From a virus, in UHGV virus genome UHGV-0180981: a stretch of DNA of 11,886 nucleotides; one strand, given 5' to 3'. The position numbers and the translations under genes were made by a program. The stretch's first letter is position 1; every line of letters starts with the position of its first letter. Positions 1 to 9,991 of this stretch are shown one piece after another. The notes below the pieces were generated by a model. It saw only the letters and a program-made list of their open reading frames with translations. It searched no databases and was not told the origin of the DNA.

Positions 1-76
1 GCGAAATCGGTAGACGCAGTTGATTCAAAATCAACCGTAGAAATACGTGCCGGTTCGAGTCCGGCCTTCGGCACCA
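1..76 (+). tRNA. leuX: tRNA-Leu (anticodon CAA), 3' portion; the first ~9 nt of the gene lie upstream of the window
   Basis: Sequence matches the recognised leuX tRNA from D-arm onward: anticodon loop with CAA at 26-28, long variable arm, T-arm GGTTCGAGTCC, acceptor 3' end GGCACCA ending at 76. Confidence 0.9.
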
Positions 77-77: not shown

Positions 78-556
78 GTCACTAAATTCCTTACAATACA
101 GCTGGTTAGACGATTAAATCTGTCTCTTTTGCCTGTAAGAAATGCTCTGTTATGTCCCTTGAAAAAGCCGCTGTGGTTGATAGTGGTAATTGGGATGTTA
201 ACTCATAGCGGCGTGTCGTTCCAGGCGTCAAACACGTACTGACTCAACTTGAAAGCTATGACGTAGCCACCGTCTCTAAACAATCCCAAAAACTTTTAGT
301 GAAGCGCATTTTAGCCCGATGCCCCCGTTCTGTCGCCGTCGCGAGACGCCGCAGGGGATAAACAGGTTTATGGTGGTCACGGTACTTGCAGACCATATGC
401 AAGCTCTGCCAGCGGTTCGGCCTCGCTCCCCTTGGGTACATGGTCATCCTGATAAGCCTCACTAACTGACATAACCCTGATGAAGTCGCCAGAGGCTCCG
501 CTTGTTGTCTTACCACCAACGGGGCTTTATGGATTCTATTGCGGTATGTTTGAAAG

Positions 557-589: not shown

Positions 590-1504
590 TTATGGTAAGT
601 ATTTAAGTATTTCTGCTGCCCAGTTTACACGGTGGATGACACGGGCATGGTGCAAGTTTCCGTCTAGTATTTCGGCTTTAGTTAGCTGGGATAACTGCTG
701 CCAATTATTGTTAAGTATATAAGTTGCGTTATTACATTGTGAGCTTTCTAGCACGTAAATGTTTTGGCCTGTGAACCCAAATATCACGTAGCCTTGGAAC
801 CCAGCTTGCCCAACCGCTACGAAATCTGGTTTTTTACTATTGATAAGTTCAAGTCTGCCTTCAACAACAGCGGTATTGCCCTTTCCCCTGATCTTAATAG
901 CTGAAAGGATTTTTGAACCGATAGTACTCCAAGGCTGTTGACCCTGAGGCAGGAGGCTCCAGTTTAGTTTTATAGATTTACTTTTAACGATGGTATTAAG
1001 TTGGTCGTCAACAGTTTCGCACAACCCAAAAAGCTCTAAAAAAAGATTAATGCAGTGAGCCACTAACTCTTTGTTGTTAGCTGTCAAACTTAGCTTTGGA
1101 GAGATGATCAACTTCTCCCCTTGCAGATTCTCTACAATCTTTAACTCTATGCTTGGTGGAGGGGTGAGGATTCTCTTGTAGCGCTTATACTCAATTTCAC
1201 GAGTGTCAGTAACTTCTTGAGTTGCGCCCCCTCCGATCCATTGCTTTCTAGTCCATGAAATTTGTCTGTATGCAGTTTCTTTAGGTGCTGTTTTGTCAGG
1301 TACTGATTTGCCATTAGCATTGAATCTGGTTATTGGCCCTAAAATTTTGGGGAGGACTTCTTCACCTAAAGCTCTTTGACTTGAGAAACCAATAGAGTCC
1401 GTTTTCCCCGCATCTGGCAAAGAATGTGCAATGTAGATATCACGGCCATCAAAGTTAGGTATGTAATTATCAATATTTCGAATACGCTTTTTCTGAATAA
1501 GCAT
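590..1504 (-). CDS. Hypothetical protein, 304 aa, no recognisable family; AT-rich foreign-looking cargo gene
   Basis: Longest ORF in the AT-rich arm; ATG start with AGGAA about 8 nt upstream on the minus strand; hairpin follows the stop; no motifs recognised by eye. Confidence 0.6.
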   Translation of the reverse strand: MLIQKKRIRNIDNYIPNFDGRDIYIAHSLPDAGKTDSIGFSSQRALGEEVLPKILGPITRFNANGKSVPDKTAPKETAYRQISWTRKQWIGGGATQEVTDTREIEYKRYKRILTPPPSIELKIVENLQGEKLIISPKLSLTANNKELVAHCINLFLELFGLCETVDDQLNTIVKSKSIKLNWSLLPQGQQPWSTIGSKILSAIKIRGKGNTAVVEGRLELINSKKPDFVAVGQAGFQGYVIFGFTGQNIYVLESSQCNNATYILNNNWQQLSQLTKAEILDGNLHHARVIHRVNWAAEILKYLP

Positions 1505-1636
1505 GGATCGTTCCTTTTGATTTTATCTTACTGTTTACATAACCAACCAAGCCGGGCACAATCGAGCCGTTAGAAACGATAGTGAGGCTAACAATCGTTA
1601 TGAGTTTGCAGACTCATGGCGGTCATGCTTCATAGA

Positions 1637-1667
1637 CCGGATTCACGCAGGTGACTCCGGTTTTTTT
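1637..1667 (+). terminator. Rho-independent terminator (plus strand)
   Basis: CCGGA-T-TCAC / GTGA-C-TCCGG stem with 4-nt loop, followed by a run of 7 T (1661-1667). Confidence 0.55.
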
Positions 1668-2338
1668 ATGCCCATCATTTATACATGGGCACAACATATA
1701 GGGTGTGTTAATAAGATTACCCCCTACATGTTCAGCATTCTAGTTAGGATTCTTTGCAGTACAAGGGTTGATTTTGAGGTTAAATTGAGGTTGTCAAAGG
1801 GAAATTTCGACCAACCCTACGTGCCGTAAGGCTTAGGCTGTATGTCAATGTTTCAGAAAAAAAAATGAAAATTTGATCGAGTGCTGATTTCTTTAGCACG
1901 AGAACATGAGAACGAACCAAAATATTGCAAAGTTTTGAACAAAACTTGAACTGCCTCGTGTCTCCATAGCCAAGACGAATGCAGTTTAAATAAGCTAAGT
2001 CAGCTCTCAAAAGTCCTTTATGACCCGAACCAAAAAATGTACCTCTTAAACCCCACCGCAAGCGGCTCTCCGGGGTTTGTGCGCGTGGAGTAATGCGGTT
2101 GTACTGGGTATGTGCGCACAACCCTCTACAAGCCGCATTCTACCGTTAGCCTATAGCTGAATCCCCGGCTTGAAAAATTGTACGCTTATGGTTGCCCCTC
2201 CCTCAACTGTATAGCTCGCCCGCGCCCCCGTGCGCATGTGCGTGCCCGCGCGTCAGGGGTCGCTGAGAAAACCCTAAGATTTTGCTCATCCGAGACAACC
2301 GTTGCAGGCGCGTGTTGCCGAGGGCACACTGCTAGTGT

Positions 2339-2448
2339 TTGATGGTGTCATCAATCGTTCGATTTTTGCTACCTTCCTGAGTGATTACTATCTGGTGTCA
2401 TCAATTTAGGGTTTGACTAAATGCTACCACCAATGCAATGATGCTACC
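2339..2448. promoter_or_regulatory. Repeat cluster upstream of serine recombinase gene (candidate res/operator sites)
   Basis: TGGTGTCATCAAT exact direct repeat at 2343-2355 and 2393-2405; first copy sits in inverted repeat TTGATG-gtgt-CATCAA (2339-2354); TGCTACC three times (2367-2373, 2422-2428, 2442-2448). Confidence 0.4.
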
Positions 2449-2479: not shown

Positions 2480-3055
2480 ATGAGGACTTTTATCTATTGC
2501 CGCGTTTCAACACGCGAGCAGGATACGCAGAATCAGGTGCTGGCTATTGAGCGTGCCGGGTATAAGGTGCCGGAGAGCAGGGTAATCAGTGAGGACATTT
2601 CCGGTAGCGTTCAGGCTATGCAGCGCCCTAAGTTTCGGGCGATGGTTGAGCATAAGCTGGAAGCGGGAGATCAGCTTGTCGTGCTGAAACTGGACAGGCT
2701 GGGGCGCGACAACATCGACGTGCAACAGACCATCGACATGCTGTTAGAACGTGGCGTGAAGGTGGTGTCTCTTGACCTGCCTGCGCGTGATCTGACTTCA
2801 TCTGAGGGCAAGCTAATCCGCCAGATGTTTGGAGCCTTTGCTGAGTTCGAGCGAAACCGTATCCGTGAGAGGACGCTTGACGGGCTGGAGAAGGCGAAAG
2901 CCAATGGCGTTAAGCTGGGACGCAAGGAAGCCACCGACACCACTCAAAAGGTGCAGGAGCTGCGGAGTGAGGGGCTGTCTCAATCGAAGGTAGCGAAGCG
3001 TCTCGGAGTTAGTGTGAGCACCGTTAAACGCCACTGGAACAAGGGCGAGGGGTGA
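2480..3055 (+). CDS. Small serine recombinase (resolvase/invertase family), 191 aa
   Basis: N-terminal YCRVSTREQ catalytic-serine motif, LKLDRLGRD motif, C-terminal HTH (SQSKVAKRLGVSVSTVKRH); GAGGTG RBS about 8 nt upstream of ATG. Confidence 0.92.
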   Translation: MRTFIYCRVSTREQDTQNQVLAIERAGYKVPESRVISEDISGSVQAMQRPKFRAMVEHKLEAGDQLVVLKLDRLGRDNIDVQQTIDMLLERGVKVVSLDLPARDLTSSEGKLIRQMFGAFAEFERNRIRERTLDGLEKAKANGVKLGRKEATDTTQKVQELRSEGLSQSKVAKRLGVSVSTVKRHWNKGEG

Positions 3056-4316: not shown

Positions 4317-6161
4317 ATGCCAACAAACCTACGCCGCCTGCTTGCGCAGGCTGCCGACGCTGACCCGCTCAATACTGCGGACGCAGATGTACAGCAAATG
4401 ATCGCTGACGGGACTGTTATTCGACGTTCCAAGATATGCCCCGTAAAGCGTAAACCCGTTAAGGCGGCATACAACACAAAGACCGAAGAGTTTTATTACA
4501 ATGCTGATGGTTCCGCTATGACCCTGCGGGAGTGGCGAACGCTGCACGGTGTTCAACCGAAGAAGCAAAAACAGCGCTCTGACGCTGGGTTGCGGCAAGT
4601 CATCCAGCCCGGCGACGCGATTCACTGTCGACGCGCTGAGATTGAGCAATGGCTAAATAAAAAGCCTGCTCGTTATGTTGAACCACTGCCGCCAGATTTC
4701 CCCGGCGTTCGCGTAGACGAGGCTGCATTGAAACCGCGCGAGCACGCCGTGCCGGAATCAACAACCGGACAGAATGCTTTTCTCAAAGCCTGCCGCGAGT
4801 TTCTGATTTGCGACGAGAAGACCATGCGCCGCATTAACAGGGGCATGAATAAACTGGAAGCGATGCGCAATACAGATTTCAAACGCTACGGGAACTCAGC
4901 GGAGTTTCGTCAATTGTGGTGTGGAGAGTCGAAACCTACCGAGGATAAATTTAACAGTACAAATCATCATTGTGACCCGAACGGCTTGGCTGCATCGCCG
5001 TCTATGCCGTCACTGAATACTGTGCCGTATGAGTTCCGTCCGCTGGTTCGCTGTGACCGAAACGCACGCGTCAGCCTGCTGCCACCCGATGGGCTGGAGT
5101 GGAGGCCGGGACAGTTGTCTGTTGCTGATGCGATCTTTACCCGTGGTAGGGATGTGCTTGCCGTACTGCCGACCGGGTATGGCAAAAGCGCCGCCTTCAC
5201 TTATCCACTGATTTATGAGTCCCGCGCTGGCATTGGCCTGTCTGTAATCGTGGTTCCTACTAATACCCTTAAGCGTCAGATTCTCCGCCAGTTGCGGGAG
5301 GCTGGCATTCACGCCGTGGCCTTTGGCGATAAGCTACCGAGGCACCGCAACGCACAACAACTGGCGGGACTAGCAGCCGGGGCGTTCCGGCTTGCTGTTG
5401 TTTCGCCTGAACATCTGGTTCCGTCGAGTCAGGTTCTCGCGGCGCTGATGGCTTATGGCGTTGATCGTTTTATTATCGATGAGGCACACACGGTCAAAGA
5501 CTGGGATTTCCGCCCAGCTTACGACGCAATGCAGCACACACTACAGAATGCTTTTCCCTCGGCTCAACGTTGCGTGTTTACGGCTACTCTACTACGTGAA
5601 AATGAGCGCGGTTTAATGGAGGCGCTGGGGTGCCGTGGCAATTACGTCACATTCCGTGCTGATGTTGCTCGCGAGCATATCCAGTTGATTCCGGTCAGGC
5701 AGTGCCGCGAACGTTTCCGAGCGGCTATTGGTCTGGTCGAGGCTCTGCCGAAAGAAGAGAAGACGCTTATTCTCGTCAATGACCTTAAAACGTTGCGGGC
5801 GTACCTGAAACTCTTGGGCGACCGGGCGCGGCCATATCACTCGAAGACGATGCACCTGAGCAACGAGGAACGCCACGCAAACGCTGAGTGGTTTGCCTCT
5901 ACGCCGGGCGCGATTCTTATTGCTACTAAAGCCTTCGGGCTGGGTGCTGATGTTCCTGATATCCGTAACGTTGTCGTGACATACGTCCCCGATGATTTGC
6001 CTGATCTCGTTCAGATGATTGGACGAGCCGGGCGCGATGGGGAACCTGCCCGCGCTTTTCTGCTGTGGTCATCGCTGGCGCTGGATGTTGCGCCTGATGA
6101 GCTTGCTTACTTCTACCGCCCTGAAAACTGCAACTGGCAGTACATCGCTAAATACCTCTGA
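4317..6161 (+). CDS. RecQ-like superfamily 2 DEAH helicase with uncharacterised ~270-aa N-terminal domain, 614 aa
   Basis: Motif I LPTGYGKS, Ia VIVVPTNTL, II IIDEAHTV with DWDFRPAY, III FTATL, VI GRAGRDG; ends about 45 aa after motif VI, so no RQC/HRDC; GGAG RBS. Confidence 0.9.
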   Translation: MPTNLRRLLAQAADADPLNTADADVQQMIADGTVIRRSKICPVKRKPVKAAYNTKTEEFYYNADGSAMTLREWRTLHGVQPKKQKQRSDAGLRQVIQPGDAIHCRRAEIEQWLNKKPARYVEPLPPDFPGVRVDEAALKPREHAVPESTTGQNAFLKACREFLICDEKTMRRINRGMNKLEAMRNTDFKRYGNSAEFRQLWCGESKPTEDKFNSTNHHCDPNGLAASPSMPSLNTVPYEFRPLVRCDRNARVSLLPPDGLEWRPGQLSVADAIFTRGRDVLAVLPTGYGKSAAFTYPLIYESRAGIGLSVIVVPTNTLKRQILRQLREAGIHAVAFGDKLPRHRNAQQLAGLAAGAFRLAVVSPEHLVPSSQVLAALMAYGVDRFIIDEAHTVKDWDFRPAYDAMQHTLQNAFPSAQRCVFTATLLRENERGLMEALGCRGNYVTFRADVAREHIQLIPVRQCRERFRAAIGLVEALPKEEKTLILVNDLKTLRAYLKLLGDRARPYHSKTMHLSNEERHANAEWFASTPGAILIATKAFGLGADVPDIRNVVVTYVPDDLPDLVQMIGRAGRDGEPARAFLLWSSLALDVAPDELAYFYRPENCNWQYIAKYL

Positions 6162-6198
6162 GTCGAAAGGCTCTCCCTGATTCTCTGGAGTTAATCAT

Positions 6199-6636
6199 AT
6201 GCCTGTTACCGAACATGCGCAGCGTCGTGCTGCGCGTGCGGATGCGCTCATCACCGCACAACTAGCCTTCGCCCTGAATGGGTACAACTGGGATGAACTG
6301 GCCGAACCTCATCGCAAGACCCTTAATCGTGAGGCCATCATTCGCGAGGTATCTACACCGCTGGAGCGATATTGCCTGCTGAATGATTGCGAGCCGTGGG
6401 AGTGTCTGGCCGCTGTACTGAACCGCATGAAAAGGCCGGATGGCTCGCGTCGCTGGAAAGCCGTCCGTTTGTCCGACCGGGTTTTCAATGGCCGAGTGCA
6501 TCCAGTGCGCAAAACGCCTGATGAAGTTTACGCCGCCATTGCCCGCCGCTTGTTCCTGCCGAAGCCCGTGCATCAAGAAGTGATACAGCACATCCGTGCG
6601 CTTGGCTTGTTACCAATTGGAGACAACCACCAATGA
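6199..6636 (+). CDS. Hypothetical protein, 145 aa
   Basis: GGAG RBS 9 nt upstream; 37 bp after helicase stop; stop overlaps next start (ATGA). Confidence 0.6.
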   Translation: MPVTEHAQRRAARADALITAQLAFALNGYNWDELAEPHRKTLNREAIIREVSTPLERYCLLNDCEPWECLAAVLNRMKRPDGSRRWKAVRLSDRVFNGRVHPVRKTPDEVYAAIARRLFLPKPVHQEVIQHIRALGLLPIGDNHQ

Positions 6637-6842
6637 CGAAATCTGAATTTGAAAATGAAACATGGCGAATGAAGGGCTTGCTTCTTGGGGCGCTGATTCG
6701 CCGCCTTGAGGAAGATAAGGCTGGCGAGTCGCGCATGGTCGCAGCGGAGTTATCCAGTGCGGTCAACTTCCTTAAGGCCAACGCCGTAGAAGCGCCGGAC
6801 ACATCATTCAACAACGTGTTCCCGGAGGATGACGAGCAATGA
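6633..6842 (+). CDS. Hypothetical small protein, 69 aa
   Basis: ATGA overlap with upstream and downstream genes; GGAGA RBS. Confidence 0.55.
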   Translation: MTKSEFENETWRMKGLLLGALIRRLEEDKAGESRMVAAELSSAVNFLKANAVEAPDTSFNNVFPEDDEQ

Positions 6843-7015
6843 CCCCTGAACAATTCAGACAATGGTTCGCCACGCTGCCACCGAACTATCAGAGCACCGC
6901 ACGCACCATGTACGACAACGCCCGCAAGTCGGGCACACATACCGCGTCAAGCCTTGCGCTGATTCACACGTTGGTTACTGACCAGATCAAATTTGATTCG
7001 GAGTTTAATTTATGA
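6839..7015 (+). CDS. Hypothetical small protein, 58 aa (below the ORF-track length cutoff)
   Basis: Translated by hand: ATG at 6839 overlaps upstream stop (ATGA), stop at 7013-7015 overlaps next start at 7012 (ATGA); GGAGGA RBS about 9 nt upstream. Confidence 0.45.
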   Translation: MTPEQFRQWFATLPPNYQSTARTMYDNARKSGTHTASSLALIHTLVTDQIKFDSEFNL

Positions 7016-7575
7016 CTTTGAGTATTACCGATATCCAGCGCATTAACGCGCTGGCTCATAAGCACCTAAAGAACAATGAAGAGATTGCAGCGGAGACAGG
7101 TCATACCCTGACCGATATTGATGCTGTAATCCGTGGCGTCTATGTCGATGACTTGGCCGAACATTGGAAAGACGATGCTGATATTACTCTGGCGGAGTAC
7201 AACGCCATCCGCAGCCGCTATAAGCCCGGCAAGCTGCACCGCGATACAGAGTTTATGATTGCCCGCGATATGCTGATTCGCCCTGAGACTGTGCTGGCTA
7301 TCGCCCATTCCCGCTTTAGCAACGTCCACACTCACCCAGTGCCGAAAGCCGTCAAAGCAAAGCCGGAGAAAGCGAAAGTAGTGCGCAAGTTGGTGCCTAC
7401 TGATTTAGATGAAATTCACAAGTTAGAGCGCTTCGGTTGGCCTGCTGCGGAGATCGCCGGGAAGCTGGGCGTCCCTGTTGAGGTCGTCGCGCATGTGCAA
7501 CGCTGCCTGAGAAATCGTTGGTCGTACCCGGATACTCTGGAGTCTGTTAACTCCAAATTCAGCGAGGCTGAATGA
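7012..7575 (+). CDS. Hypothetical protein with putative HTH motifs, 187 aa
   Basis: GGAG RBS 8 nt upstream; HTH-like segments near N-terminus and in LERFGWPAAEIAGKLGVPVEVV; ATGA overlap at both ends. Confidence 0.6.
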   Translation: MTLSITDIQRINALAHKHLKNNEEIAAETGHTLTDIDAVIRGVYVDDLAEHWKDDADITLAEYNAIRSRYKPGKLHRDTEFMIARDMLIRPETVLAIAHSRFSNVHTHPVPKAVKAKPEKAKVVRKLVPTDLDEIHKLERFGWPAAEIAGKLGVPVEVVAHVQRCLRNRWSYPDTLESVNSKFSEAE

Positions 7576-9493: not shown

Positions 9494-9991
9494 ATGGCTG
9501 ATACTTCGTACAGTCCCGATCTGTTTCGCCCACACTATGGCGGGGTGGAATCCGACAATGATATTCACATCGAGGCTTATGACCGGGACATCCAGACCCG
9601 TTTAGAGTCCAAATCTGTATTTCTGGCCGAGGGGCTGTCTACATACAGGCCGCTGAAAGCCAGCAACCAATATCGTGTTGATCGCCTGAGTGGTGATCTG
9701 GAGGTGAAGGGCAGAGCCGCAGGGCAATCGCTGGAGCATACCGCCGTTAAGTCGGACAAGCTGATTATCTCTGTGGATACGCTGAGCTATCTCCGCATCC
9801 CGATTGACTATCAGGAGGACTGGACAGCACCCACTTTTCGCTCAGAGCTGAGCCGCAATATGGGTACTGCTCACGCTAAATTCTACGACGAAGCGCACAC
9901 CATCCAGCTAATCAAAGCGACTGACTTTGTATCGCCGCCGACACTGCAACCAACGTTTAACCCACTAAGCGAGTCCATTCCAGAGCAATAG
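9494..9991 (+). CDS. Hypothetical protein, 165 aa; possibly an N-terminal fragment of a T7-like major capsid protein
   Basis: AGGAG RBS 8 nt upstream; by-eye resemblance to T7 gp10 N-terminal region (LF...GG, ED...RSExxxxxGxxxA); ORF ends at about half normal capsid length. Confidence 0.55.
   Translation: MADTSYSPDLFRPHYGGVESDNDIHIEAYDRDIQTRLESKSVFLAEGLSTYRPLKASNQYRVDRLSGDLEVKGRAAGQSLEHTAVKSDKLIISVDTLSYLRIPIDYQEDWTAPTFRSELSRNMGTAHAKFYDEAHTIQLIKATDFVSPPTLQPTFNPLSESIPEQ

What the first reader, a model, noticed from the sequence alone, without database searches (positions are those of the whole stretch)
1534..1667. Candidate ~100-nt structured small RNA divergent from the 304-aa ORF
A plausible sigma-70 promoter (TTTACA 1534-1539, 17-bp spacer, CACAAT 1557-1562) is followed by two hairpins (AACGAT/ATCGTT 1575-1599; ATGAGT/ACTCAT 1600-1617) and a strong intrinsic terminator (1637-1667). 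No protein gene is encoded between them. An sRNA beside an orphan AT-rich gene could be a regulator or an antitoxin-type RNA.
Basis: inference. Interest (0 to 1): 0.5.

Follow-up and report, generated by a model that had tools for sequence, protein, structure and literature searches.

The report
Antisense small RNA guarding swappable cargo gene
The flagged stretch is very probably a real, unannotated ~100-nt small RNA gene. It sits inside a conserved 365-bp control region and most likely acts as an antisense brake on whichever cargo gene is plugged in next to it on this enterobacterial genomic island.

Summary
TTTACA-17-CACAAT (1534-1562), a long hairpin (1584-1631) and a terminator (1635-1662 plus U7) are present. 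The RNA folds far better than shuffles (z -6.2). Across 29 distinct homologues, 92% of cells pair, against 30-47% in slid controls, and 10 pairs show compensatory changes. Pairing favours the + strand (92% vs 73%). No Rfam family matches, and RefSeq annotates nothing here in 97 E. coli genomes.

The RNA belongs to a conserved leader (about 1533-1897), not to the 304-aa ORF. The same leader and sRNA sit in front of an unrelated 88-aa gene in 17 of 47 loci. The leader carries a conserved minus-strand promoter: -35 rc(1759-1764) and -10 rc(1737-1742). Its transcript would cross the whole sRNA in antisense before reaching the cargo.

In 18 viral contigs the same promoter module precedes a different three-hairpin sRNA and 25-28-aa hydrophobic, type-I-toxin-like peptides. 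Best reading (about 0.6): a cis-antisense repressor in a type-I-toxin-antitoxin-like, cargo-swappable platform.

Transcription, cargo toxicity and mechanism are untested. The sRNA has decayed in three lineages that keep an intact ORF, so it is probably not an indispensable antitoxin.

The parts
1..73 (+). 3' part of tRNA-Leu (CAA anticodon, read from the sequence; the leuX locus beside yjgR/ahr). It is the island's integration site and is context only.
   Evidence: Rfam tRNA at 38.4 bits, truncated at the 5' end. RefSeq annotates a tRNA-Leu beside yjgR/ahr in L001.
282..541 (.). Conserved left flank of the variable cargo slot.
   Evidence: It is 70-84% identical in loci carrying either cargo type, with 478-541 shared most widely.
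590..1504 (-). Cargo gene: a 304-aa protein of unknown fold and function. Its SD AAGGAA is rc(1511-1516).
1534..1562 (+). sRNA promoter: -35 TTTACA (1534-1539), 17-nt spacer, -10 CACAAT (1557-1562).
   Evidence: Listed by the scan at 9/12. Hexamers and spacing are invariant in all intact homologues. Spacing is broken (12 or 23 nt) exactly in the lineages where the RNA has decayed.
1568..1667 (+). Predicted sRNA transcript of about 100 nt. The 5' end is inferred from the -10 and could be off by about 2 nt.
   Evidence: MFE -41.8 kcal/mol, z -6.2. The covariance model scores 83-120 bits in 13 of the scanned loci (the window plus 12 enterobacterial loci) and finds nothing elsewhere. No Rfam family matches.
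1566..1583 (+). P1, the 5' hairpin. It has 4-7 bp in homologues and is weak in this window (CGUU/AACG).
   Evidence: 79% of cells are paired and 4 pairs have double changes. RNAalifold keeps the inner 4 bp.
1584..1631 (+). P2, the long hairpin. The outer helix is GAGGC/GCUUC. The inner 13-bp helix is 1594-1606 / 1611-1623, with apical loop UGCA. Its sequence is nearly invariant.
   Evidence: The outer helix is 100% paired and the inner helix 91%. The many G-U pairs make it + strand specific. The divergent L145 copy has U-A to C-G and U-G to A-U compensations.
1635..1667 (+). P3, the intrinsic terminator. The stem is 1635-1646 / 1651-1662, the loop is GCAG, and the U-run is 1661-1667.
   Evidence: 97% of cells are paired and 5 pairs have compensatory changes. 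The other strand has no U-tract, so it is unidirectional.
1669..1691 (-). Hairpin B, with a 7-bp stem. Homologues keep a stem here but with different sequence.
   Evidence: It is slightly more stable on the minus strand (25 vs 14 of 42 sequences). The only Rfam hit is a weak potC-like match at 24.4 bits.
1694..1731 (-). Hairpin A. It starts at the predicted +1 of the cargo mRNA and is a candidate 5' stabiliser stem-loop.
   Evidence: The arms covary between homologues: ATATAGGGG/CCCCTATAT, ATGTAGTG/CACTACAT, ATGTGGGG/CCCCCACAT. The minus strand is more stable in 30 of 42 sequences.
1737..1764 (-). Predicted cargo promoter: -35 TTGTAC = rc(1759-1764), 16-nt spacer, -10 TAGAAT = rc(1737-1742). 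The TSS is about A1731.
   Evidence: In 35 distinct sequences the -35 is TTGTAC/TTGTGC/TTGCAC in 33 and the -10 is TAGAAT/TAAAAT in 32. Information is 1.71 and 1.51 bits against 1.19 in the spacer and 0.60 downstream. It is kept where the sRNA has decayed. The simple scan did not list it, because the -35 matches only 3/6.
1765..1795 (-). Invariant block upstream of the cargo -35, GGGTTGATTTTGAGGTTAAATTGAGGTTG. On the minus strand it reads as two AACNTCAA repeats 11 bp apart. It is a candidate regulator-binding site.
   Evidence: It was used as the scan pattern that found 21 viral contigs.
1840..1897 (.). Right-hand conserved block and right end of the leader: ATGTCAAT...A9-TGAAAATTTGATCGAGTGCTGATTTCTT. 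Its role is unknown.
   Evidence: It is near-invariant across leaders that are otherwise 73-80% identical, and similarity stops at about 1897.

Best explanation
Window 1534-1667 is a small-RNA gene: a sigma-70 promoter, a ~100-nt three-hairpin RNA (P1, P2, terminator P3) and a U-run. It is embedded in a conserved ~365-bp leader (1533-1897).

The leader has its own promoter facing the other way, with -35 at rc(1759-1764), -10 at rc(1737-1742) and +1 near 1731. That promoter would transcribe leftwards through hairpins A and B, then through the full complement of the sRNA, and on into the Shine-Dalgarno and coding sequence of whatever promoterless cargo gene occupies the slot. Here the cargo is the 304-aa ORF.

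The sRNA is therefore a cis-encoded antisense RNA to nucleotides ~65-163 of a ~226-nt 5' UTR. The proposed mechanism is as follows. The sRNA forms a ~99-bp duplex with the leader. The duplex is cleaved, most plausibly by RNase III, which severs the protective 5' hairpins and destabilises or silences the cargo mRNA. Collisions between the convergent polymerases may add to the repression. The result would be that a potentially harmful cargo is kept low until the balance shifts.

The logic is that of a type I toxin-antitoxin or plasmid copy-control antisense system, built as a platform with exchangeable cargo.

Shown here: the sequence elements, the RNA structure and its strand, conservation of both promoters, cargo swapping, and the sister loci with toxin-like peptides.

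Inferred: both transcription start sites, the overlap of the two transcripts, repression, RNase III involvement, and cargo toxicity.
For: Structure:
- z = -6.2.
- 92.2% of cells pair in 29 distinct sequences, with 10 compensatory pairs, and 0/500 shuffles reach the covariation score.
- Pairing is 92% on the + strand against 73% on the - strand.
- The covariance model finds the RNA at 83-120 bits in all intact enterobacterial loci.

Overlap with the cargo mRNA:
- Only about 30 nt separate each cargo ATG from the conserved block, and no consistent promoter was seen in that interval by eye on alignments A3 and A4.
- A -35/-10 pair at 1764-1737(-) is conserved over a variable spacer in 32-33 of 35 distinct sequences.
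- It persists where the sRNA has decayed.
- A covarying hairpin begins exactly at the predicted +1.

Platform:
- A near-identical sRNA and leader (differing only in U-run length) are joined to a 304-aa or an 88-aa cargo, with the breakpoint at the sRNA -35.
- The flank on the other side is also conserved.

Toxin-antitoxin logic:
- In 18 viral contigs the same promoter module precedes a different 3-hairpin antisense sRNA (z -7.75; weak RNAI-like hit, 31 bits) and 25-28-aa hydrophobic peptides with strong SDs.
- That second module also lies on 106 E. coli plasmid places.
- Distant 304-aa homologues sit beside XRE/M78, Panacea, LexA-like and DUF2188 genes.

No other target:
- sRNA complementarity to the rest of the island is at chance level, 2 ten-mers against 2.3 expected.
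- Complementarity to the cargo translation-initiation region is also at chance, mean z 0.08.
Against: - No transcript data of any kind were available, so both start sites are predictions.
- The cargo -35 matches consensus at only 3/6, and the simple scan did not list the promoter.
- The sRNA does not cover the cargo RBS: its 5' end is 65 nt upstream of the ATG. Repression therefore has to be indirect.
- The sRNA promoter, P2 and P3 have decayed in Ewingella (L084) and in Pantoea (L090/L005, L093), while the 304-aa ORF stays intact. The RNA is thus dispensable at least there.
- The 304-aa protein has no recognisable toxin domain, and its toxicity is untested.
- P2 is so conserved in sequence that most of its pairs carry no covariation information.
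Confidence: 0.6

Rival explanations
1. The sRNA is a genuine trans-acting regulator. It would be Hfq- or ProQ-type, or directed against a phage or a host mRNA. On this reading its position next to the cargo slot is incidental, or simply reflects island architecture.
For: The near-invariant P2 sequence, including the loops CUAACA and (C)UGCA(A), exceeds what structure alone requires. The RNA travels with the leader rather than with one particular cargo. It has a Rho-independent terminator with a U-tail, as Hfq-binding sRNAs do.
Against: No complementarity above chance was found to the rest of the 14.3-kb island or to the cargo TIRs. A different sRNA occupies the same place, in the same orientation, in sister loci with toxin-like peptides. 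That argues for a position-dependent, cis role. High sequence conservation is also what one expects when both strands are functional RNA.
Confidence: 0.15
2. Convergent-promoter transcriptional interference. Firing of the sRNA promoter into oncoming polymerases, rather than the RNA product itself, would be what limits cargo expression.
For: The predicted promoters face each other about 160 bp apart. Both are conserved.
Against: A strong, covarying terminator stops the sRNA 64 bp before the cargo +1, so promoter occlusion is unlikely. Selection clearly maintains the RNA helices P1-P3 through compensatory changes and + strand G-U pairs, which pure interference would not require.
Confidence: 0.1
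3. The stretch is not a free-standing sRNA. It would instead be a leader-peptide or attenuator element translating the 11-codon ORF MSLQTHGGHAS (1600-1635), or a small protein gene.
For: An ATG sits 12 nt after GAGG, and the peptide MSLQTH is kept in most homologues. Several substitutions are synonymous.
Against: Changes fall 4:4:5 over the three codon positions. The ORF is frameshifted in L084, and the stop is lost with variable extensions in four lineages. In L145 ATG becomes ACG while its pairing partner changes to keep the helix. Both the SD and the ATG are buried in P2. The opposite strand encodes a similar 'peptide' only because P2 is a near-palindrome.
Confidence: 0.04
4. RNA I / RNA II-type replication control. 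On this reading the leader transcript is a primer precursor for replication of the excised island, and the sRNA is its copy-number inhibitor.
For: The architecture (a ~100-nt three-stem-loop antisense RNA against the 5' part of a long untranslated transcript) resembles ColE1. The sister sRNA gives a sub-threshold RNAI hit at 31.3 bits, E 0.0015.
Against: The window sRNA gives no RNAI hit even at E <= 10. The leader runs straight into an SD and a coding sequence within 65 nt. The cargo is exchangeable and includes peptide genes. No origin-like features were identified.
Confidence: 0.03

Closest known systems
Type I toxin-antitoxin pairs with cis-antisense antitoxins (hok/sok of plasmid R1; symE/symR of E. 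coli) (comparison from established knowledge)
   Same: A short, terminator-ended RNA is made from its own promoter inside and opposite to the 5' leader of the effector mRNA. The promoters are convergent. The elements sit on mobile DNA. Sister loci with the same promoter module encode 25-28-aa hydrophobic peptides.
   Different: Here the cargo is a 304-aa (or 88-aa) protein that AF2 models as an alpha/beta fold, not a small membrane peptide. The sRNA does not cover the RBS or a leader ORF. There is no sequence or covariance-model similarity to Sok, SymR or any Rfam antitoxin. The sRNA is lost in some lineages with an intact cargo. Toxicity is untested.
Divergently encoded type I antitoxins (istR-1/tisB, orzO/zorO, agrB/dinQ) (comparison from established knowledge)
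   Same: The gene layout looks the same at first sight, with the sRNA promoter back-to-back with the effector's start codon. The effector has a long 5' UTR. The peptides in the sister loci look TisB/ZorO-like.
   Different: Those sRNAs lie outside the toxin transcript and pair through about 20 nt in trans. Here the predicted mRNA start lies beyond the sRNA, so complementarity is complete (~99 nt). The OrzO-P and AgrB models score far below threshold, and only on the sister sRNA.
CopA/CopT of plasmid R1 and RNA I/RNA II of ColE1 (copy-control antisense RNAs) (comparison from established knowledge)
   Same: Both are ~90-108-nt multi-stem-loop RNAs fully complementary to a leader segment well upstream of the regulated function. 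Stem-loop (kissing) recognition followed by duplex formation, with RNase III cleavage of the CopA-CopT duplex, is the working model borrowed here.
   Different: No replication function is evident in this case. No tap-like coupled leader ORF is conserved. The RNAI model is not matched by the window RNA.
Variable cargo hotspots of P2-like phages and P4-like satellites (Rousset et al. 2022, PMC9122126; abstract as listed)
   Same: A variable gene slot lies between conserved flanks in a phage-related integrative element. One locus sits next to Avs2, and a homologue lies in a P2-like prophage between gpV and gpS.
   Different: I am not aware, from my own knowledge, of those hotspots having a dedicated promoter-plus-antisense-RNA leader; that paper's full text was not read here. 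No defence function has been shown for either cargo here, and PADLOC is negative for the 304-aa protein (the 88-aa cargo was not scanned against PADLOC).

Membership tests
Intrinsic (Rho-independent) terminator | A G+C-rich stem-loop immediately followed by a U-run on the transcribed strand. | tested here: met
   The stem is 10-12 bp (1635-1646 / 1651-1662), the loop is GCAG and the U-run is U7. 97% of cells are paired, with 5 compensatory pairs in 29 sequences. There is no U-run on the opposite strand.
Sigma-70 promoter (sRNA) | -35 and -10 hexamers 16-18 bp apart, positioned to start the RNA. | tested here: met
   TTTACA-17-CACAAT matches 9/12. It is invariant in intact homologues, and the spacing is disrupted only where the RNA has decayed. 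Promoter activity itself cannot be tested with these tools.
Cis-encoded antisense sRNA | An independent transcription unit (own promoter and terminator) giving a structured RNA. | tested here: met
Cis-encoded antisense sRNA | A transcript from the opposite strand that overlaps it. | tested here: inconclusive
   The overlap is predicted from the conserved TTGTAC-16-TAGAAT at 1764-1737(-), from the +1 hairpin, and from the lack of room for a promoter next to the cargo. No RNA data were available.
Cis-encoded antisense sRNA | The sRNA changes the level or translation of the overlapping mRNA. | not testable with these tools
   This needs reporter fusions or Northern blots.
Type I toxin-antitoxin system | The toxin is a small (usually <60 aa) hydrophobic peptide. 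| tested here: not met
   The cargo here is 304 aa, and AF2 models it as an alpha/beta fold (pLDDT 90). No transmembrane prediction was run. The feature is met only in sister loci that use another sRNA.
Type I toxin-antitoxin system | The RNA antitoxin base-pairs with the toxin mRNA. | tested here: inconclusive
   Complementarity is complete if the mRNA starts near 1731. No second site exists at the TIR.
Type I toxin-antitoxin system | The toxin is harmful without the antitoxin. | not testable with these tools
   Comparative data lean against strict dependence. The ORF is intact where the sRNA has decayed, in L084, L090 and L093.
Any Rfam 15 family (including Sok, SymR, IstR, OrzO-P, AgrB, RNAI, CopA, C4, IsrK) | A covariance-model score at or above the family's gathering threshold. 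| tested here: not met
   The only gathering-level hit in the window is the tRNA at 1-73. Within 1400-2500 at E <= 10, only a potC-like hit at 24.4 bits on hairpin B.
Type III toxin-antitoxin (ToxIN-like) | Tandem RNA repeats upstream of the toxin, on the same strand, separated from it by a terminator. | tested here: not met
   No tandem repeats are present, and the RNA is on the opposite strand.
Leader peptide / small protein gene | A conserved ORF with a coding-type substitution pattern. | tested here: not met
   Codon-position changes are 4:4:5. The ORF is frameshifted in L084, the stop is lost in four lineages, and ATG becomes ACG in L145.

The most novel reading that the evidence does not exclude
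The leader is a portable, type-I-TA-like 'cargo socket' used by enterobacterial prophages, phage-plasmids and satellite-like islands. It has one conserved promoter module, an interchangeable cis-antisense RNA brake of at least two unrelated sRNA types, and interchangeable promoterless effectors. The effectors range from 25-aa membrane peptides to a 304-aa protein of unrecognised fold that is spread across bacteria and archaea. In this reading the 304-aa and 88-aa cargos are toxic abortive-infection or defence effectors held in check by RNA. That would make this the first RNA-antitoxin system for a large protein of this family. In other phyla the same protein family is instead found next to genes for XRE/M78, Panacea or LexA-like proteins.
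Probability: 0.3. Interest if true: 0.7.

Novelty: new member of a known kind. Interest (0 to 1): 0.45.

Why it matters
It adds an unannotated sRNA family, seen in 97 of 5,426 complete E. coli genomes and in Klebsiella, Enterobacter, Citrobacter, Leclercia, Serratia and Pectobacterium relatives. It gives that family a supported secondary structure and a testable target.

More interesting than the RNA itself is the architecture it reveals. A conserved promoter-plus-antisense-RNA leader expresses exchangeable, promoterless cargo genes at the edge of mobile elements. The same promoter module also drives type-I-toxin-like peptides under a different antisense RNA. If the cargos turn out to be toxic or anti-phage, three things follow:
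- a functional handle on a widespread 304-aa protein family with no known domain or fold;
- an example of RNA-based control being swapped for protein regulators across lineages;
- a simple sequence signature (the leader) for mining new effectors.

If the cargos are harmless, this is an ordinary antisense-regulated accessory gene.

Tried and rejected
- Known RNA families: Rfam at gathering and at E <= 10 gave nothing.
- Tiny ORF or leader peptide: rejected on substitution pattern and on start-codon loss.
- An ORF promoter immediately upstream of the ATG, on the minus strand of 1505-1560: reading alignments A3 and A4 by eye, no hexamer pair with 16-18-nt spacing is shared by the variants.
- An invertible promoter switch driven by the neighbouring serine or tyrosine recombinase: no flanking inverted repeats, and all 44 distinct leaders are collinear.
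- A minus-strand terminator role for P3 or hairpin B: there is no U-tract on that strand.
- Trans targets in the island or at the cargo TIR: complementarity is at chance level.
- The 12-nt perfect complement between the tRNA anticodon arm (25-36) and leader 1766-1777: judged to be chance. About 0.3 such matches are expected (my own estimate), and the block is identical in an island at tRNA-Gly.
- Literature: no paper holds the protein accession, the sRNA sequence or the peptide sequences.
- The E41 hit H60 is an IS3 insertion or deletion and is uninformative.

Full report
**Context.** The window matches E. coli KFu019 at 100%. It starts in the 3' part of tRNA-Leu (leuX locus) and runs into an integrated, phage-satellite-like island. 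From left to right the island holds:
- a 304-aa ORF on the minus strand (590-1504);
- about 975 bp without annotation;
- a serine recombinase (2480-3055);
- a DpdF-like helicase (4317-6161);
- a major-head-protein gene, with an integrase about 14 kb away.

RefSeq annotates nothing between the ORF and the recombinase, either here or in 97 E. coli genomes that carry the region.

**Observation.**
- The promoter TTTACA-17-CACAAT is listed by the consensus scan. Such matches are as common as in shuffled sequence (14 found against 11.0 +/- 3.5), so the motif alone proves nothing. The terminator has one internal mismatch and was missed by that scan.
- Folding is the first real signal. The stretch 1568-1668(+) folds at -41.8 kcal/mol with z = -6.2.
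ATCGTT 1594-1599 pairs with GGCGGT 1618-1623, not with AACGAT 1575-1580.
- This gives a long hairpin P2. The outer helix is GAGGC/GCUUC (1584-1588 / 1627-1631). The inner helix is 13 bp (1594-1606 / 1611-1623).
- P2 is preceded by a small 5' hairpin P1 and followed by the terminator P3 (1635-1662) and U7.

**Comparative test of the RNA.** Homologous loci were collected by three routes:
- E. coli BLAST;
- homologues of the 304-aa protein;
- a pattern from the 5' side of P2 scanned over metagenome and viral contigs.

The results:
- Thirty-three distinct sRNA sequences were obtained, and 29 were aligned (A8).
- The three-helix model is 92.2% paired, against 30-47% when partners are slid by 1-3 columns.
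- Ten pairs carry changes on both sides, in 35 cells. None of 500 column shuffles reaches the observed covariation score.
- Most covariation is in P3 (5 pairs) and P1 (4 pairs).
- P2 is almost invariant in that set. The more divergent L145 copy (83 bits with model R1) shows U-A to C-G and U-G to A-U compensations in its inner helix.
- Because many pairs are G-U, the same helices are 92% paired on the + strand but only 73% on the - strand. The structured RNA is therefore the + strand one, as the U-run also indicates.
- MFE folding of each homologue on its own gives the same three-hairpin layout in 10 of 13 lineages.
- No Rfam family matches at gathering score or at E <= 10. No paper holds the sequence.

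**Coding alternative.** An 11-codon ORF (1600-1635, MSLQTHGGHAS) lies in P2. It shows no coding signal:
- Substitutions fall 4:4:5 over the three codon positions.
- The ORF is frameshifted in Ewingella.
- Its stop is lost, with unrelated extensions, in four lineages.
- In L145 the ATG is ACG, and the base opposite it has changed to keep the pair.

It is therefore not a conserved coding sequence.

**What the RNA belongs to.**
- In 30 of the 47 pattern-derived loci the 304-aa homologue starts 80-81 nt left of the P2 pattern.
- In the other 17 loci, the same position and strand hold an unrelated 88-96-aa gene: M(P/T)ICK..HRYN..GRHKCCGCAYDQGYRAGL..AFAEGYRDG. It has no Pfam family apart from a sub-threshold RMF-like motif.
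- One sRNA sequence is shared by loci with either cargo, differing only in U-run length.
- Similarity between the two kinds of locus begins right at the sRNA -35 and continues for about 365 bp, to window ~1897.
- On the far side of the cargo, window ~282-541 is conserved as well.

The sRNA is thus part of a conserved leader next to a variable cargo slot. It is not a partner of the 304-aa ORF as such.

**The second promoter.** Each cargo brings only about 30 nt (an SD and little else) between its ATG and the conserved block. Reading alignments A3 and A4 by eye, no hexamer pair with consistent 16-18-nt spacing is shared there by the variants. A good candidate promoter lies further right.
- On the minus strand, the pair TTGTAC-16 nt-TAGAAT (rc 1759-1764 and rc 1737-1742) is conserved.
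- In 35 distinct sequences the -35 is TTGTAC, TTGTGC or TTGCAC in 33. The -10 is TAGAAT or TAAAAT in 32.
- The spacer and the downstream sequence vary more: information is 1.71 and 1.51 bits against 1.19 and 0.60.
- An inverted repeat whose arms covary between lineages (hairpin A, 1694-1731) begins at the predicted +1. It is somewhat more stable as minus-strand RNA, which fits a 5' stabilising stem-loop.
- Upstream of the -35 lie two invariant AACNTCAA repeats 11 bp apart (1765-1795).

A transcript from this promoter would pass hairpins A and B. It would then cross the complement of the entire sRNA, where P3 has no U-tract on this strand, and reach the cargo SD after about 226 nt. This step is inferred. 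The -35 is weak (3/6), the simple scan did not list the site, and no RNA data exist.

**Sister loci.** Scanning viral contigs with the block upstream of the -35 gave 21 loci. Eighteen of them lack the window-type sRNA.
- All 18 keep hairpin A, the -10 and -35, the repeats and the right-hand block.
- At the sRNA position and orientation they carry a different ~90-nt three-hairpin RNA. It has its own promoter (TTGAAG-17-TAAGCT) and terminator, and folds with z = -7.75.
- Its best Rfam hits are sub-threshold: RNAI at 31.3 bits (E 0.0015) and OrzO-P at E 0.17.
- Downstream, in 11 of the 18 loci by a simple SD-plus-ATG/GTG search, one or two 25-28-aa hydrophobic peptides follow strong SDs. An example is MVALLLKIVPPMFVIINAIIEYVNQRP. 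They look like type I toxins.
- That sRNA-leader-peptide segment also occurs at 106 plasmid places in E. coli, on the ~100-120-kb plasmids that were listed, and is unannotated there.

The shared promoter module therefore drives small toxin-like peptides under one antisense RNA, and the 304-aa or 88-aa proteins under another.

**The cargo.**
- The 304-aa protein has 722 homologues across bacteria and archaea, typically about 45% identical, all labelled 'hypothetical'.
- It has no domain, defence-system or PDB match.
- A confident AF2 model (pLDDT 90) has no fold match.
- In 74 distant loci its neighbours include XRE/M78 (ImmA-like) or MqsA-Panacea regulators (20 loci), DUF2188 (10 loci, same strand and adjacent) and LexA-like repressors (8 loci).
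- A Proteus homologue sits in a P2-like prophage between gpV and gpS.
- One E. coli locus with the 88-aa cargo lies next to Avs2.

These are contexts typical of toxin, abortive-infection or moron genes, but they are not proof.

**Mechanism proposed.** The sRNA is a cis-antisense RNA to nt ~65-163 of the cargo 5' UTR.
- It has no above-chance complementarity to the rest of the island or to the cargo start region. The perfect ~99-nt overlap is therefore its only evident target.
- By analogy with Sok/hok and CopA/CopT (established knowledge), duplex formation followed by RNase III cleavage would remove the 5' hairpins and inactivate the mRNA.
- Polymerase collision in the overlap may contribute.
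- The terminator ends the sRNA 64 bp short of the cargo +1, so promoter occlusion is unlikely.

**Limits.** In Ewingella and two Pantoea lineages the sRNA is clearly decayed:
- the promoter spacing is 12 or 23 nt;
- P2 or P3 is lost;
- model R1 scores 30 bits or less, or nothing.

In those same lineages the 304-aa ORF and the cargo promoter remain intact. The RNA is thus a dispensable modulator there, which argues against a strictly addictive toxin-antitoxin pair. Rival readings are listed separately with their weights: a trans-acting sRNA, pure transcriptional interference, a leader peptide, and RNA I-like replication control.

**Verdict.** This is very probably a genuine, previously unannotated sRNA gene of a familiar kind (cis-antisense, type-I-TA-like). 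It is made more interesting by its place in a cargo-swappable expression platform shared with toxin-like peptide loci. Confidence that the sRNA gene is real is about 0.85. Confidence that it represses the cargo in cis is about 0.6.

Noticed in passing
L098, L099, L101, L103, L106, L113, L116-L118, L120-L123, L127, L128, L130, L136, L145 (the position equivalent to window 590-1504): An alternative cargo occupies the same slot. It is an 88-96-aa protein, M(P/T)ICK..HRYN..GRHKCCGCAYDQGYRAGL..AFAEGYRDG, with two GY(R/Q)(A/D)G motifs that weakly resemble ribosome modulation factor (PF04957, E 1.4e-3, below cutoff). 132 homologues, named only 'hypothetical' or left unnamed, occur in Klebsiella, Citrobacter, Enterobacter, Serratia, Vibrio and others.
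   Followed up: partly
L146 560-1110 (and L147-L163; 106 plasmid places in E. coli): An unannotated type-I-TA-like module. It consists of an RNAI-like ~90-nt antisense sRNA and 1-2 hydrophobic 25-28-aa peptides behind the same promoter module. In L146 the 15-mer AATGTATCTGGCGAC, complementary to the sRNA's 5' hairpin, occurs twice (650-664 and 826-840). The second copy overlaps the ATG of a 57-codon ORF that ends in the first peptide, which suggests a second, RBS-proximal sRNA site.
   Followed up: partly
window 2051-2210: About 160 bp (GCGGCTCTCCGGGGTTTGTGCGC...GCGCACAACCCTCTACAAGCCGC, an imperfect inverted repeat at 2062-2084 / 2114-2136). It occurs on its own, at about 93% identity, in many E. 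coli genomes that lack the rest of the region. It is unannotated and has no Rfam hit. It may be a repetitive or mobile intergenic element.
   Followed up: no
window 2343-2355 and 2393-2405: A perfect 13-bp direct repeat, TGGTGTCATCAAT, 50 bp apart and just upstream of the serine recombinase gene (2480-3055). These may be recombinase or regulator binding sites.
   Followed up: no
window 1840-1897: The right end of the leader (ATGTCAAT...A9-TGAAAATTTGATCGAGTGCTGATTTCTT, which contains a GATC) is nearly invariant across leaders that are 73-80% identical elsewhere. Similarity ends abruptly after it. Its function is unknown: it could be a regulator site, a recombination boundary or the terminator of an upstream unit.
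   Followed up: partly
window 2480-3055; L002 6574-7131; L145 5487-6044; L095/L096 about 1780-2420: A small site-specific recombinase lies next to the right end of the leader in many but not all loci, and its type differs. It is a 191-aa serine resolvase/invertase here and in Leclercia L088. It is a 182-186-aa tyrosine recombinase in L002, L145, L095 and L096. No evidence of inversion was found in 44 distinct leaders.
   Followed up: partly
window 25-36 vs 1766-1777: There is a 12-nt perfect complement between the tRNA-Leu anticodon arm and the invariant leader block GGTTGATTTTGA. It is probably chance: about 0.3 such matches are expected (my own estimate), and the same block is present in an island at tRNA-Gly.
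   Followed up: yes
window 4317-6161: A 614-aa DEAD/RecQ-like helicase matches the PADLOC DpdF model PDLC02858 over its full length (E 6e-273). It sits inside an island that also has a major head protein (9494-9991, phrog_267) and, further along in L001, HNH and endonuclease genes, a methyltransferase plus restriction endonuclease pair, and the integrase.
   Followed up: no
L010-L083 (distant homologues of the 304-aa protein): The 304-aa family has no Pfam domain and an unrecognised fold. It recurs next to XRE/M78 (ImmA-like), MqsA-Panacea, LexA-like and DUF2188 genes in phyla from Patescibacteria to Methanobacteriota. The Proteus copy is a moron between gpV and gpS of a P2-like prophage (L097).
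   Followed up: partly
window 1584-1633, both strands: Because P2 is a near-palindrome, both strands contain short ORFs sharing 'MSLQTH': MSLQTHGGHAS on the + strand and MTAMSLQTHNDC on the - strand. This is a trap for small-ORF callers.
   Followed up: yes
L003 (E. coli E41), about 6117-7282: An IS3-family element is inserted about 12 nt upstream of the 304-aa ORF's ATG. The leader and the rest of the island are deleted, up to uxuA. The ORF is left intact but without its leader.
   Followed up: partly
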